Source: Candidatus Algichlamydia australiensis (GTDB taxonomy: Bacteria; Chlamydiota; Chlamydiia; Chlamydiales; JAJFMI01). Taken from it: a stretch of DNA of 64,000 bases. This document shows, piece by piece, positions 24,001 through 27,000 of the stretch (positions are counted from its first letter, which is position 1; the number at the start of each line of letters is the position of its first letter). Location: the NCBI GenBank assembly GCA_033977065.1, contig JAXCHI010000003.1:628875-692874 (forward strand). Reading direction: 5' to 3'. A program made the position numbers.

Positions 24001-27000
24001 CATTGGAGGAGATCTGCTTGTCGTCTCGCAATTTACCCTCTACGCTGATGCGAGCAAAGGCCGCCGTCCCTCTTTTACAGAAGCAGCACCACCCGCGCAA
24101 GCGCTCACTCTCTACAACAAATTTGTAGAATCATTAGAAAATTCTTTTGGGAAAAAAGTACAAACAGGAGAATTTGGGGCCGACATGTCAGTTGACTTAA
24201 CTAACGACGGCCCGGTAACTATTTTACTTGAAAGCTAAAAAGTTCCTTTTCAGAGAAGAAGAAAGGAATTTCTTGTGCAGCCGTTTCTGGGCTATCGGAG
24301 CCGTGAACTGCATTGGCATCAATGCTCTCTGCAAAGTCCGCGCGAATGGTTCCAGGTGCAGCTTTTTTCGGATCCGTCTCACCCATAATCTCGCGATTCA
24401 AAGCGATTGCATTTTCTCCCTCAAGAACAGAGATGACAACAGGTCCAGAAGTCATAAATTCGACAAGCTCGCCGAAGAAAGGGCGCTCCTTGTGAACAGC
24501 GTAAAAATTTTGCGCTTGCTCCTCACTTAGGTGAAGCATTTTGATTGCCGCAATGCGAAGACCTTTCTTTTCAAAACGGGCAATGATCTGTCCAATAACG
24601 TTTTTATTTACAGCATCAGGTTTAATAATCGATAAAGTTTGTTGTTTACTCATATAGACTCCTTAAGTTATGTTTATCTTACCTTATTCATAGATAAAAT
24701 GCAACCAAAGAAAATTTTAATTGACTACCATTTGCAGTCGTGAGAACTCTACACTTTACCCCTGTTTTATTCGAAATGGTCTCTTTAGAGATCCAAAAAA
24801 AGAGTATGGGCTTAATTTTGGAGATGTAGAAAAAGTAGAAAAAATTTGCACGCTTGGGCTCTTTGAGAAAGTCTTATATGGGGAGAAAACAGTTAAAAGT
24901 TTGCAAAGGAGAGTTTATTTCGACAAGAATCTTAGATTTGTTAATTTTAAAAACTTAGATATTTCTAGATAGTGTCGTCAAAAGGCTATAATCAGATTAT
25001 TTTTCATGTTTGCAGCTTATTTTTGTGCGGAAATTGAAGCTGAATTTGTAAATTCCGCTTCATTTGAGCACAAAAATGGAGCCCAAACATGAAAAATAAG
25101 ATGGTTGTATGCTTTTGACGACGCTATCTAATTGTTGCACACATCATTACGAACCTGATCGTGAGATAGCTGAAACTTATCTCGAATTAGAAAAAGTTTT
25201 TGGAAAGTGGACCCTACCACTTGCGCGTTTACTGATTCAAGATACAGAAGTTCTCTCTAAGTGGGCGCCAATCCCAACCAAAATTCCCCTTGATAATAGA
25301 GAGATTGAATTTACCTGGTGCAAGGAAGAATTAGAAACTAGAGTAAAGAATGCATATAAAAACGAGGAAAGAGAGTTTTTTGTACAGATCATAAACTTCT
25401 GGAGTGAATTGGAGGGTCGAGAGTGGAATGAAGGGTTCTACTTTCACTGGATCTATATCGTCTATCGCATACGCACCATTTTGGAAAACAGTAAGGAAAA
25501 TTGTGGTGAGGATTTTTGGATCTGCATCCGTCACTTTGTCGACGGGGCGCAACTTTATGGTTGGTGGGATAAATTGCTTAATCTTGCAGAAGGAAGTGAG
25601 AAAGAAAAAGAGATTCAAAGAATTCCTTTTCAGGTGCGACAAATTTCAAAATTAAGACACGAAGACAAGCAAGCATTGCTGAGTCTTATGACGGAGGTTT
25701 TTTCTAATTCGGAATTGATAAGTGGGGTAGGAGATTGGGAATATTATAATGATTTTGAGGCATCTTCACTCCCGAATACTACAAACAAAAAGAAAGAGGG
25801 TAGAGCAAAAGTTCACCTTATAGCTGGTATTGCACTCATTACTTTTGGTATCATCGGGGGTCTATACTATTATGGAAAACTTGATCGACTTCTCCAATAT
25901 ACGAAAGATTTTAGTCGCAAAACTGCGCCACCACGGTGATGTTCTCTTAACTTCACCACTCTTTTCGCAACTTAAAAAAGTTTGTCCCCACGCGACTATT
26001 GATGCTTACCTCTACAAAGAGACACATCCCATGTTAGCAGGCCACCCCGCTATCAACGATTTTCTTCTCTATGACAAATCCTGGAAAAAACTTTCCCTTC
26101 CTATGCGCCTACTTCAAGAGACGAAACTGCTGCAGCGCATTCGCAAAGGAAACTATGACCTTGTTATCAACCTCACGGAAGGGGATCGCGGCGCTTTAGC
26201 TGCCAAAGTCTCCAAAGCGCGTTATACAGTTGGCTTTGATGCAGAAGGTAGCGGCATGAAGGGAAAAAATAAATGCTACACCCATGTGGTACGCATCTGC
26301 CACAAACCGCGTCACACCGTTGAGCGTCACCTCGATGTGCTGCGCTGCCTTGGCATCTCTATTCCTGAGAACGAGCGAGATATCTTTTTTCATATTCCAC
26401 AAGAGTGCAAAACAAAAATTGCCACCCTTGTTCCGAACGATTACACTCTCATTCACCCTGTTTCGCGCTGGCTCTTTAAAGCCCTGCCAACAAAAACAAT
26501 CGCAAACCTGATCAAAGAGCTGCATGCCCAAGGTAAAAACATTGTTCTCTCCAGCAGCCCCGACCCGCAAGAACTTGCCATGTGCGAAGAAATCCTTGTA
26601 CAAACAAAAGAAATTCCCATCTGCAACTTAGCTGGTAAAACTTCCCTAAAAGAGCTGGGTGCGCTTATTGAACAAGCAGAACTTCTCATCACCGTCGACT
26701 CACTCCCACTCCATCTCTCTAGTGCCCTAAAAACCCCTGTTGTCGCAATCTTTGGCCCCACCTCAGATGAGACCTGGGCGCCTTGGTGCAATCCCAACAG
26801 CAGGATCGTGACAAAATCGATGCCTTGTCGTCCTTGCTACATGCCAGGTTGCGGAGGTAGTGGCCGTAGCGACTGCCTTGAAACTCTCGAACTTTCTAAA
26901 ATTTTAAACGCTGTTAAACAGTTAACATCTACTTTTAGCAGATCTTCTTGCAGTTAAAAAAAGGATATTTTGGATGATTCTTACTCATTGATTTCTTCAA

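What the first reader, a model, noticed from the sequence alone, without database searches (positions are those of the whole stretch)
24721..25939. A 163-bp TA-flanked hairpin MITE splits a gene in frame and supplies the ATG of the downstream half
The ORF 24721-24972 terminates just inside MITE copy B (24966-25131). The ORF 25109-25939 begins at an ATG inside the other MITE end (ATGCTTTTGACGACGCTATCTAA). Deleting the element plus one TA joins the two frames as ...FKNLDIS-N-CCTHHYEPDREIAE... So an ancestral gene of about 350 aa, with a C-terminal transmembrane anchor, appears to have been cut. The downstream 276 aa may still be translated from a start codon carried by the element. That would be MITE-driven gene truncation or remodelling rather than simple inactivation. 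Frame agreement alone has a 1 in 3 chance expectation. The upstream half has only a TTG start.
Basis: seen in the sequence. Interest (0 to 1): 0.7.

Follow-up and report, generated by a model that had tools for sequence, protein, structure and literature searches.

The report
Mobile hairpin element splits a chlamydial gene
A small, recently mobile hairpin DNA element (a MITE) has landed inside a fast-evolving membrane-protein gene of the dinoflagellate symbiont Candidatus Algichlamydia australiensis; related bacteria keep the gene in one piece, and the start codon annotated for the surviving half belongs to the element, which is a tidy but ordinary case of gene disruption.

Summary
A 161-nt hairpin element flanked by TA sits at 24966-25130. 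It has two 99%-identical copies elsewhere in the window. It interrupts an ORF. Removing the element plus one TA (163 nt) restores a 351-codon frame.

The key new evidence is five uninterrupted orthologs in sister lineages. Their flanking genes are 75-88% identical in protein to the window's. Each ortholog is one 224-codon ORF between ndk and rfaQ and starts at the same conserved TAA-TTG. Their profile matches the window's protein from residue 82, exactly at the insertion point (hhalign E 1.7e-8). No in-frame start exists for 100 codons downstream of the junction except the element's ATG/TTG. The original start therefore lay upstream, and the coding sequence was truly cut.

Continued translation of the 276-aa remnant is untested, and the sequence leans against it. 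There is no Shine-Dalgarno motif. In read-through RNA the ATG is buried in a very stable hairpin. The insertion is too recent for ORF intactness to say anything.

The most likely reading is a fresh loss-of-function allele whose annotated start is a by-product of the element. This is a new member of a known kind, of modest interest.

The parts
24721..24967 (+). Upstream half of the split gene: the conserved TTG start, codons 1-82, and the first base of codon 83
   Evidence: The segment is open for 82 codons in the joining frame only (shuffle p about 6e-4). Its codon-usage score is 0.27-0.38, like real genes. The start context TAA-TTG-nnn-ACn-ATT-TGy is conserved in the orthologs.
24966..24967 (.). 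Left TA, the target-site duplication
   Evidence: TA flanks all three copies. Removing the core plus one TA restores the frame.
24968..25128 (+). MITE copy B core (161 nt): terminal inverted repeats GATAGYGTCGTCAAAAG..., near-palindromic hairpin, no ORF
   Evidence: The copies are 99% identical. The DNA hairpin folds at -52 kcal/mol, z = -10.9. The 261-nt RNA context folds at -97 kcal/mol. The element is absent from all related loci.
24970..24972 (+). TAG stop supplied by the element, which ends the upstream half after one extra residue (R)
   Evidence: Read directly from the sequence and the ORF list.
24987..24992 (+). Perfect TATAAT hexamer in the left arm, with a poor -35 (TAGATA) at a 15-nt spacing. 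Hypothetical internal promoter.
   Evidence: Found by a relaxed consensus scan. The standard scan did not report it. It could occur by chance in AT-rich DNA.
25109..25111 (+). ATG inside the right terminal repeat, annotated as the start of the downstream half. A TTG follows at 25115.
   Evidence: The same ATG is present in all three copies. PGAP (SNF33_05245) and Bakta (EFCAOE_05300) use it as the start. In the RNA fold it lies between an 8-bp and a 19-bp stem.
25129..25130 (.). Right TA, the target-site duplication
25131..25939 (+). Downstream half of the split gene: the rest of codon 83 to codon 351, plus the stop
   Evidence: There is no in-frame ATG, GTG or TTG between the junction and 25409.
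25133..25270 (+). Conserved block (reconstructed residues 84-129, C-x-HH-Y...FG...EV..W) directly downstream of the junction
   Evidence: hhalign of the ortholog profile against the reconstructed protein aligns columns 65-112 with residues 82-129, probability 95%, E 1.7e-8. BLASTP and tblastn agree. A Smith-Waterman score of 72-75 was not reached by any of 2000 shuffles.
25811..25876 (+). C-terminal transmembrane anchor, followed by the conserved YGKLDRL motif
   Evidence: Kyte-Doolittle peak of 1.98. The segment is 38-45% identical to the orthologs.
24219..24653 (-). ndk, the divergent upstream neighbour that fixes synteny
   Evidence: It is 85-88% identical in protein to the relatives' ndk.
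25872..26957 (+). rfaQ-type heptosyltransferase, the downstream neighbour. It overlaps the tail of the split gene by 68 nt.
17217..17382 (-). MITE copy A, intergenic between tRNA-Gly/tig and the SNF2 helicase gene
   Evidence: The relatives lack it.
38253..38418 (-). MITE copy C, intergenic, at the right edge of an RHS-toxin insertion

Best explanation
**What it is.** A non-autonomous DNA transposon (MITE) recently transposed into a TA inside a gene. The element has a 161-nt core, TA target duplication and long hairpin arms, and was presumably mobilised in trans by a TA-targeting transposase. The TA lies at codons 82/83 of a lineage-specific, fast-evolving gene for a tail-anchored membrane protein, between ndk and rfaQ in Candidatus Algichlamydia australiensis.

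**Shown.**
- The gene was one ORF before the insertion.
- The upstream 82 codons now end at a TAG five nt into the element.
- The downstream 269 codons have lost their native TTG start.
- The only start codons left for them, ATG 25109 and TTG 25115, lie in the element's right terminal repeat. They happen to be in frame, so gene callers annotate a 276-aa 'hypothetical protein'.

**Inferred.**
- Transcripts from the native promoter read into the element. Its RNA hairpin buries the ATG, and no Shine-Dalgarno motif precedes it.
- The downstream half is therefore translated poorly or not at all.
- The locus is a young loss-of-function or strongly hypomorphic allele, not an adaptive remodelling.
- The in-frame ATG is a 1-in-3 coincidence.

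**Confidence.** The split-gene part alone I put above 0.9. The figure of 0.62 is for the whole statement, including the loss-of-function inference.
For: **The element.** There are three copies, each differing from another at 1-2 of 166 positions. All are flanked by TA and form a hairpin (z = -10.9).

**The restored gene.** Excising 163 nt gives a 351-codon ORF. The upstream half is open in the joining frame only (p about 6e-4) and has gene-like codon usage.

**Orthologs.**
- L002-L005 (protein P0123), L006 (P0127), L012 (P0124), P0125 and P0126 are uninterrupted 224-codon ORFs in the same ndk-X-rfaQ position.
- None of the related loci contains the element.
- The ortholog profile matches reconstructed residues 82-129, E 1.7e-8. 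The C-terminal anchor also matches, E 4e-8.
- Residues 1-7 and the TAA-TTG start are conserved.
- The orthologs' N-terminal 66 codons are under purifying selection, dN/dS 0.28.

**Start codons.** No in-frame start exists between the junction and codon 101 of the 276-aa ORF apart from the element's ATG/TTG.

**Independent assembly.** The Logan short-read assembly of SRR26803925 breaks 27 nt inside the left end of the element (window 24992) and 28 nt inside the right end (window 25104). Both junctions are therefore supported, and no empty-site contig exists.

**Against efficient translation.**
- The 22 nt before ATG 25109 contain no GGAG, GAGG or AGGA, whereas ndk has AAGGAG.
- The ATG sits in a 2x2 internal loop between an 8-bp and a 19-bp stem. 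The 261-nt RNA context folds at -97 kcal/mol, z = -10.5.
- The standard promoter scan finds nothing inside the element.
- The other two copies read out into stops within about 12 codons or face away from genes.
Against: - No expression data exist, so loss of function is an inference.
- Both halves are still intact ORFs. This is expected for an insertion whose copies differ by only about 0.6%.
- A perfect TATAAT lies in the left arm (24987-24992). If it were active, transcripts would start inside the element, lack the outer left arm, and expose the ATG.
- Many well-supported genes in this window also lack an obvious Shine-Dalgarno motif, so its absence is weak evidence.
- Residues 8-81 of the upstream half show no significant similarity to the orthologs' N-termini.
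- The window's protein is 127 residues longer than the orthologs and only about 18% identical to them overall, so the 'ancestral' form is inferred for this lineage only.
Confidence: 0.62

Rival explanations
1. MITE-driven remodelling. The element acts as a portable start-codon cassette, perhaps with its own promoter. Transcription begins at the TATAAT in the left arm, so the RNA lacks the outer left arm and the ATG in the right arm is single-stranded. A 276-aa N-terminally truncated tail-anchored protein is then made, with seven element-encoded residues (MLLTTLS), and it keeps the conserved core and the anchor.
For: The ATG is in frame, with no stop before the end of the element. TATAAT at 24987-24992 and the ATG are both arm-specific asymmetries that point in the same direction. 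The truncated product keeps both blocks that are conserved with the orthologs, residues 82-129 and the anchor. Precedents exist: bacterial repeats can extend the 5' ends of genes, and Neisseria REP2 carries a promoter, ribosome-binding site and ATG (Delihas 2011, PMC3184786).
Against: The -35 is poor and the spacing is 15 nt. The standard scan did not call it. A TATAAT in a 34% GC element is not improbable by chance. There is no Shine-Dalgarno motif. The other copies make no ORF fusions. The orthologs' N-terminal 66 codons are under purifying selection (dN/dS 0.28), so loss of the N-terminus is probably not neutral. The insertion is too recent for the intact ORF to show selection.
Confidence: 0.22
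2. Termination-reinitiation coupling through the hairpin. Ribosomes finishing the 83-aa upstream ORF at TAG 24970-24972 sit at the base of the hairpin and melt the outer stem. That frees the ATG on the opposite arm, which the stem holds nearby, so both halves are made as separate polypeptides.
For: The geometry fits. The stop codon lies in the outer 19-bp stem, and the complementary strand of that stem begins immediately 3' of the ATG. Both halves are intact ORFs.
Against: This is pure inference. The ATG is 137 nt downstream of the stop along the RNA. The inner stems would remain folded. There is no Shine-Dalgarno motif to capture the 30S subunit. No known precedent was examined here.
Confidence: 0.04
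3. The insertion is not fixed. It is a minority or culture-specific allele, or an assembly choice, and the population also carries the intact 351-codon gene.
For: The genome is a MAG from one Cladocopium culture (PMC11317633). The near-identical copies imply very recent activity.
Against: The MAG used long and short reads. An independent short-read assembly (Logan, SRR26803925) ends inside the element on both sides and has no bridging empty-site contig. No protein matching the intact 351-aa form exists in 5.8 billion clusters. No empty-site DNA was found in JGI metagenomes.
Confidence: 0.06
4. The two ORFs were never one gene. The frame agreement is chance and the upstream ORF is spurious.
For: Residues 8-81 of the upstream half are not significantly similar to the orthologs' N-termini (Smith-Waterman shuffle p 0.09-0.17; hhalign matches only residues 1-7). 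No annotation pipeline called the upstream ORF.
Against: The orthologs are single ORFs across the site. The homology block starts at the junction. No alternative start exists downstream. The upstream half is 82 open codons in the joining frame only, with gene-like codon usage. No other frame of the upstream region resembles the orthologs.
Confidence: 0.03

Closest known systems
Bacterial MITEs with TA target duplication (IS630/Tc1-mariner-type derivatives, e.g. the Neisseria Correia element and cyanobacterial Nezha-like MITEs)
   Same: It is short (about 160 nt) with no transposase. It has long terminal inverted repeats that fold into a stable hairpin and TA on both sides. Multiple near-identical copies exist, and related genomes show filled versus empty sites. 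General MITE features are as reviewed in PMC3184786.
   Different: No sequence relative of this element was found anywhere: 0 hits in 185,579 species genomes, JGI metagenomes and PLSDB plasmids, and only generic hairpin hits below threshold in Rfam. Its autonomous partner is unknown. The stored part of the MAG annotation lists IS5-family/DDE_Tnp_1 transposases and no IS630. No MITE-focused paper on Chlamydiae turned up.
Repeat elements whose ORFs are fused to the 5' or 3' ends of host genes (Streptococcus BOX/RUP/SPRITE, Bordetella and enterobacterial repeats; Neisseria REP2 with promoter, RBS and ATG)
   Same: An element-borne ATG reads out through the terminal repeat in frame with a host ORF and becomes its annotated start. 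An element-borne stop truncates the upstream part. The phenomenon is described in PMC3184786.
   Different: Here the fusion follows from an intragenic insertion that separated a gene from its own start. It is not an element sitting upstream of an intact gene. No RBS is present, no promoter is demonstrated, and there is no recurrent association with downstream genes among the three copies.
Rickettsia palindromic elements (RPE) inserted in frame in protein-coding genes (Ogata et al. 2000, cited in PMC3184786)
   Same: A palindromic mobile element lies inside a protein-coding gene of an obligate intracellular bacterium.
   Different: RPEs are translated through as part of the host protein. This element is 163 nt (not a multiple of 3) and introduces a stop at its fifth to seventh nt, so it breaks the protein in two.

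Membership tests
MITE (non-autonomous bacterial DNA transposon) | Short element (under about 400 bp) with no transposase ORF | tested here: met
   The core is 161 nt. The ORF lists show no ORF of 40 aa or more contained within any of the three copies.
MITE (non-autonomous bacterial DNA transposon) | Terminal inverted repeats | tested here: met
   The arms are 69-70 nt and 77-80% complementary. In the RNA fold the outermost stem (TA plus the 17 terminal nt of the core) is a perfect 19-bp helix.
MITE (non-autonomous bacterial DNA transposon) | Target-site duplication flanking each copy | tested here: met
   TA lies on both sides of all three copies. Removing the core plus one TA restores the reading frame. 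Without a nucleotide-exact empty site, TA as part of the repeat cannot be formally excluded.
MITE (non-autonomous bacterial DNA transposon) | Several near-identical copies at unrelated loci | tested here: met
   Three copies lie within 64 kb and differ at 1-2 of 166 positions.
MITE (non-autonomous bacterial DNA transposon) | Empty sites at orthologous positions in related genomes | tested here: met
   The orthologous ndk-X-rfaQ loci and the tig-SNF2 spacers of relatives lack the element. The sites are too diverged for a base-exact empty-site comparison.
MITE (non-autonomous bacterial DNA transposon) | Cognate autonomous IS with matching terminal repeats | not testable with these tools
   The rest of the MAG is not in the searchable collections, and the repeat pattern has 0 hits. 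The supplementary annotation is truncated.
IS630/Tc1-mariner-derived MITE | TA dinucleotide target duplication | tested here: met
   The feature is not exclusive to IS630 (own knowledge: some IS5 subgroups also make 2-3 bp TA-containing duplications).
IS630/Tc1-mariner-derived MITE | Terminal repeats shared with an IS630-family transposase gene | not tested
   No IS630, DDE_3 or HTH_Tnp terms occur in the held part of the MAG annotation table. The genome is unavailable for a direct search.
In-frame translated palindromic element (Rickettsia RPE type) | The element is read through in frame and forms part of the host protein | tested here: not met
   A TAG lies at 24970-24972 in the host frame, and the insert length of 163 nt is not divisible by 3.
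Promoter/RBS/ATG-bearing repeat (Neisseria REP2 type) | Element-borne ATG in frame with the downstream ORF | tested here: met
   ATG 25109 is in frame.
Promoter/RBS/ATG-bearing repeat (Neisseria REP2 type) | Ribosome-binding site upstream of that ATG | tested here: not met
   The upstream sequence ACATGAAAAATAAGATGGTTGT contains no GGAG, GAGG or AGGA. The region is base-paired in the hairpin.
Promoter/RBS/ATG-bearing repeat (Neisseria REP2 type) | Functional outward or through-reading promoter | tested here: inconclusive
   The standard consensus scan finds none. The relaxed scan finds TAGATA-15-TATAAT at 24966-24992. No expression data exist.
Promoter/RBS/ATG-bearing repeat (Neisseria REP2 type) | Recurrent placement directly upstream of genes that it serves | tested here: not met
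   Copies A and C are intergenic and make no ORF fusion. Copy A reads out 12 codons to a stop.

The most novel reading that the evidence does not exclude
The element may be a directional expression cassette: a -10 box on one arm and a start codon on the other, both facing the same way. By starting transcription inside its own hairpin it would unmask its ATG. That would convert a two-domain tail-anchored chlamydial membrane protein into an N-terminally truncated isoform. If so, MITE insertion would act as a one-step domain-deletion mechanism for fast-evolving host-interaction genes in an obligate intracellular symbiont.
Probability: 0.12. Interest if true: 0.55.

Novelty: new member of a known kind. 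Interest (0 to 1): 0.3.

Why it matters
- **Annotation.** SNF33_05245 / EFCAOE_05300 is not a native 276-aa gene. It is the 3' part of a 351-codon gene whose annotated start codon belongs to a transposon. The unannotated 83-codon ORF upstream is its 5' part.
- **Mobile elements in Chlamydiae.** The case documents an apparently undescribed and recently active MITE family in a chlamydial symbiont of Symbiodiniaceae. Chlamydial genomes are usually regarded as poor in such elements.
- **A fast-evolving gene family.** The work identifies a small genus-level family of tail-anchored proteins. It evolves far faster than its neighbours (about 18% protein identity against 75-88%) and is a plausible host-interaction factor.
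- **If the remnant is expressed.** It would be a clean natural example of a MITE donating a start codon. That remains to be shown.

Tried and rejected
- **Direct homology searches with the reconstructed 351-aa protein.** The word-indexed search found only the protein itself. Exhaustive phmmer over 1.84 billion representatives found itself plus one spurious repeat-protein hit, P0002. The orthologs are too diverged and were reached only through synteny, using the neighbouring rfaQ.
- **Family and structure searches.** Pfam gave nothing for the protein or the ortholog family beyond sub-threshold noise. The PDB sequence search with the ortholog profile gave nothing.
- **AlphaFold2.** The reconstructed protein as a single sequence gave pLDDT 36. 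An ortholog with a 5-sequence alignment gave pLDDT 45. Both are unusable, so no fold search was run.
- **Searches for the element.** The terminal-repeat pattern had 0 hits in genome contigs and in metagenome contigs. The reconstructed empty-site 22-mer had 0 hits in metagenome contigs. The element had no match in PLSDB plasmids. Rfam gave only generic miRNA-hairpin hits far below gathering scores.
- **The look-up of encoding contigs for the 276-aa protein.** Not on record.
- **More distant rfaQ neighbourhoods.**
  - L008/L009 carry three tandem ORFs of about 343 aa, and L010 carries small ORFs. Neither set is related to the split gene.
  - L007 has too little upstream sequence.
- **A frameshifted ancestral frame in the upstream half.** tblastn of the ortholog N-termini against all six frames of 24600-26000 found nothing. 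Rejected.
- **An alternative pre-insertion start at TTG 24901 (GGAG 15 nt upstream).** This remains possible. It is less likely than TTG 24721, because codons 1-60 score 0.38 on codon usage and the 24721 start context is conserved. Under either start the element lies inside the coding sequence.
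Full report
**1. Origin of the window.** The 276-aa ORF is identical to NCBI protein SNF33_05245 of the MAG 'Candidatus Algichlamydia australiensis'. In the paper describing this chlamydial symbiont of the dinoflagellate Cladocopium (PMC11317633), the Bakta table lists pckG, dtd, ndk, a hypothetical protein at contig_3:653983-654813 and rfaQ in the same order. The window therefore corresponds to contig_3:628875-692874. 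Neither pipeline annotates anything between ndk and the 276-aa ORF.

**2. The observation.**
- The repeat is real. Copies lie at 17217-17382 (-), 24966-25131 (+) and 38253-38418 (-), and they differ from one another at one or two of 166 positions.
- Each copy reads TA-GATAG[Y]GTCGTCAAAAG...CTTTTGACGACGCTATC-TA. The arms are about 70 nt.
- As DNA the element folds at -52 kcal/mol, with z = -10.9 against shuffles.
- The ORF 24721-24972 stops at a TAG five nt into the element.
- The ORF 25109-25939 starts at an ATG 20 nt from the right end of the core.
- Deleting 24968-25130 (163 nt, the core plus one TA) gives a continuous 351-codon ORF that reads ...FKNLDISNCCTHHYEPDREIAE....

**3. Three further facts make chance untenable.
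- The 82 codons upstream are open in the joining frame and in no other. The other frames run 3 and 5 codons before a stop. Only 0.06% of shuffles give 82 or more open codons.
- The upstream half has gene-like codon usage. It scores 0.27 per codon overall and 0.38 for codons 1-60. Long ORFs of the window score 0.36 +/- 0.12, and off-frame sequence scores -0.68 +/- 0.3. Three intergenic controls score between -0.09 and -0.80. None of 2448 off-frame windows reached 0.27.
- Downstream of the junction there is no in-frame ATG, GTG or TTG until codon 101 of the 276-aa ORF, apart from the ATG and TTG inside the element. Whatever was translated before the insertion had to start upstream of the element.

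**4. Orthologs.** Direct searches with the reconstructed protein found only the protein itself, even with exhaustive phmmer over 1.84 billion representatives. P0002 is a spurious hit to a repetitive protein.

Going through the neighbouring heptosyltransferase gave syntenic contigs from closer relatives than those available to the 2024 paper:
- ENA metagenome scaffolds (L002-L005);
- NCBI MAG GCA_054603195.1 (L006);
- MAG OFTM266 (L012);
- two Logan-assembly proteins, P0125 and P0126.

Flanking proteins are 70-88% identical to the window's. The DNA aligns at about 77% identity right up to window position 24734, just past the TTG.

In every relative a single ORF lies between ndk and rfaQ. It is 224 codons when read from a TTG that directly follows a TAA, in the conserved context ATAAAnTGCAACCAAAGAAnATTTTAA-TTG-nnn-ACn-ATT-TGy. 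Three observations identify that TTG as the conserved start:
- L006 has ACG where L002 has an internal ATG, so in L006 the TTG is the only start for the conserved N-terminus.
- The database proteins P0124 and P0125 are both 224 aa.
- The ORF list for L012 gives a 224-aa ORF with a TTG start at 1646.

**5. Homology across the junction.**
- BLASTP of the reconstructed protein against the L002 ortholog gives two collinear, same-frame segments. Residues 286-348 (the membrane anchor and YGKLDRL) match with E 4e-8. Residues 43-127, which span the junction at 82/83, match with E 3e-5.
- A five-sequence ortholog profile aligns its columns 65-112 to reconstructed residues 82-129, with 95% probability and E 1.7e-8. 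The strongest conserved block begins exactly at the insertion point.
- The upstream half alone matches only in residues 1-7 (MTTICSR against MATICNG, E 0.034). Its Smith-Waterman score is not significant (p 0.09-0.17).
- No other frame of the upstream DNA resembles the orthologs.
- In the orthologs the N-terminal 66 codons are under purifying selection (dN/dS 0.28; whole gene 0.30; ndk 0.08). That region is therefore coding in the family.

The conclusion is that the gene was one ORF, and the element sits inside its coding sequence. The N-terminal domain of the Algichlamydia version has diverged beyond recognition. The protein is about 18% identical overall to the orthologs, is 127 residues longer, and has lost the orthologs' CxxxC...CxxC cysteines.

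**6. Support from an independent assembly.** The Logan assembly of SRR26803925 carries the same organism, with identical rfaQ and ndk. One contig (L011) ends at window 24992, which is 27 nt inside the left end of the element. Another contig (L001) begins at 25104, which is 28 nt inside the right end. The first contig is 7638 nt long. By arithmetic, its other end falls at about window 17355, inside copy A. This is the expected behaviour of a k-mer assembler at a repeat. It supports both junctions, and no empty-site contig exists.

**7. Is the remnant expressed?** This cannot be tested here, and the sequence evidence is mixed but leans negative.
- The element's ATG is in frame, and seven element/TA-encoded codons (MLLTTLS) precede the native sequence.
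- No Shine-Dalgarno motif precedes the ATG. However, several solid genes in the window also lack one, whereas ndk has AAGGAG.
- In read-through RNA the element forms a long hairpin. The 261-nt context folds at -97 kcal/mol, z = -10.5. The A of the ATG closes an 8-bp stem, the UG lies in a 2x2 internal loop, and codons 2-7 form a perfect 19-bp stem.
- The standard promoter scan finds nothing in the element. A relaxed scan finds a perfect TATAAT at 24987-24992 with a weak -35 at a 15-nt spacing. If active, it would start RNA inside the hairpin and leave the ATG unpaired. This is a hypothesis only.
- Copies A and C make no ORF fusions.
- The copies differ by about 0.6%. My estimate from that figure is that only about five substitutions, and far fewer than one stop, are expected in the remnant since insertion. 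Its intactness therefore says nothing about selection.

**8. What the protein is.** It has no Pfam, PDB or confident AlphaFold assignment. It is a genus-level, fast-evolving protein with a single C-terminal hydrophobic anchor. Its tail overlaps the start of rfaQ. In the orthologs that tail has dS 0.09 and dN/dS 1.8, so it is constrained by the rfaQ frame and not by its own.

**9. Comparison with known systems.**
- The element meets the structural definition of a MITE.
- The TA duplication points to an IS630/Tc1-mariner-type parent, or possibly an IS5-subgroup parent. The partner transposase could not be sought because the rest of the genome is not in the searchable collections.
- MITE and repeat ORFs fused to the 5' or 3' ends of bacterial genes, repeats that disrupt genes, and a repeat carrying a promoter, RBS and ATG (REP2) are all described in Delihas 2011 (PMC3184786).
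- Unlike Rickettsia RPEs, this element is not translated through.
- No paper focused on MITEs in Chlamydiae was found, and the element has no sequence relatives in any collection searched.

**10. Verdict.** The split-gene interpretation is strongly supported by uninterrupted orthologs. The 'remodelling, not inactivation' idea is unproven and somewhat disfavoured. This is a new member of a known kind. Its value lies mainly in correcting the annotation and in showing recent MITE activity in a chlamydial symbiont.

Noticed in passing
L002-L006, L012 (ENA ERZ23486835, ERZ27333102, ERZ23487494, ERZ27333000; NCBI GCA_054603195.1; MAG OFTM266): Public metagenomes now hold much closer relatives of Ca. 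Algichlamydia than the 40-47% AAI reported in the 2024 paper. Across tig-SNF2-mreB-pckG-dtd-ndk-X-rfaQ the gene order is identical, DNA identity is about 77%, and protein identity is 70-88%.
   Followed up: partly
window 32416-38231: A 1771-aa RHS-repeat protein and a 167-aa ORF that overlaps its stop form a toxin/immunity-like pair. This pair lies between dapB/NUDIX and the 865-aa gene. The relatives have dapB directly followed by the 865-aa gene, so this is a lineage-specific insertion. MITE copy C sits at its right edge.
   Followed up: partly
window 26981-27424 (-): The ORF just downstream of rfaQ has a weak Pfam SUKH_5 (immunity-protein-like) hit in the Logan contig's precomputed annotation. 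The relatives carry a different ORF there, an ankyrin-repeat protein in L006.
   Followed up: no
window 25872-25939; L002 9844-9987: The tail of the split gene overlaps the start of rfaQ, by 68 nt in the window and by about 144 nt in the relatives. In the relatives the overlapping tail has dS 0.09 and dN/dS 1.8, so it is shaped by the rfaQ frame. Several gene callers truncate rfaQ to 304-308 aa to avoid the overlap.
   Followed up: partly
window 12749-12983 and 46239-46586: A second repeat family is present. A 149-nt inverted pair is 91% complementary, and next to it lie copies of the palindrome CTGTTACAGAGTACTAGTACTTTGTAACAG. It may be another mobile or regulatory element.
   Followed up: no
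window 13466-13602: An isolated 57-nt-arm inverted repeat, 77% complementary with a 23-nt loop.
   Followed up: no
window 62761-63994: Tandem array of at least five units of 234 nt (64-87% identity), one of them separated by a 303-nt spacing. It runs to the end of the window and is probably a repeat-containing coding region.
   Followed up: no
window 16997-17497: The tRNA-Gly/tig to SNF2 spacer is about 345 nt longer than in the relatives. MITE copy A accounts for only 166 nt of the excess. The rest is unique sequence that includes a G-rich run (GGGGGGGGAAGGGG).
   Followed up: no
L008 1838-4958 (JGI 3300034886) and L009: In a more distant relative (rfaQ 67% identical), the position upstream of rfaQ holds three tandem paralogous ORFs of about 343 aa. 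They have signal-peptide-like N-termini and no Pfam match, and they are unrelated to the split gene.
   Followed up: partly
orthologs of the split gene, residues 23-72 (alignment A3): The orthologs carry the cysteine pattern C-x3-C ... C-x2-C ... C-x-H-R-Y, which suggests a small zinc-binding module. The upstream cysteine pairs are absent from the Algichlamydia N-terminus, and only the last Cys/His block is conserved.
   Followed up: no
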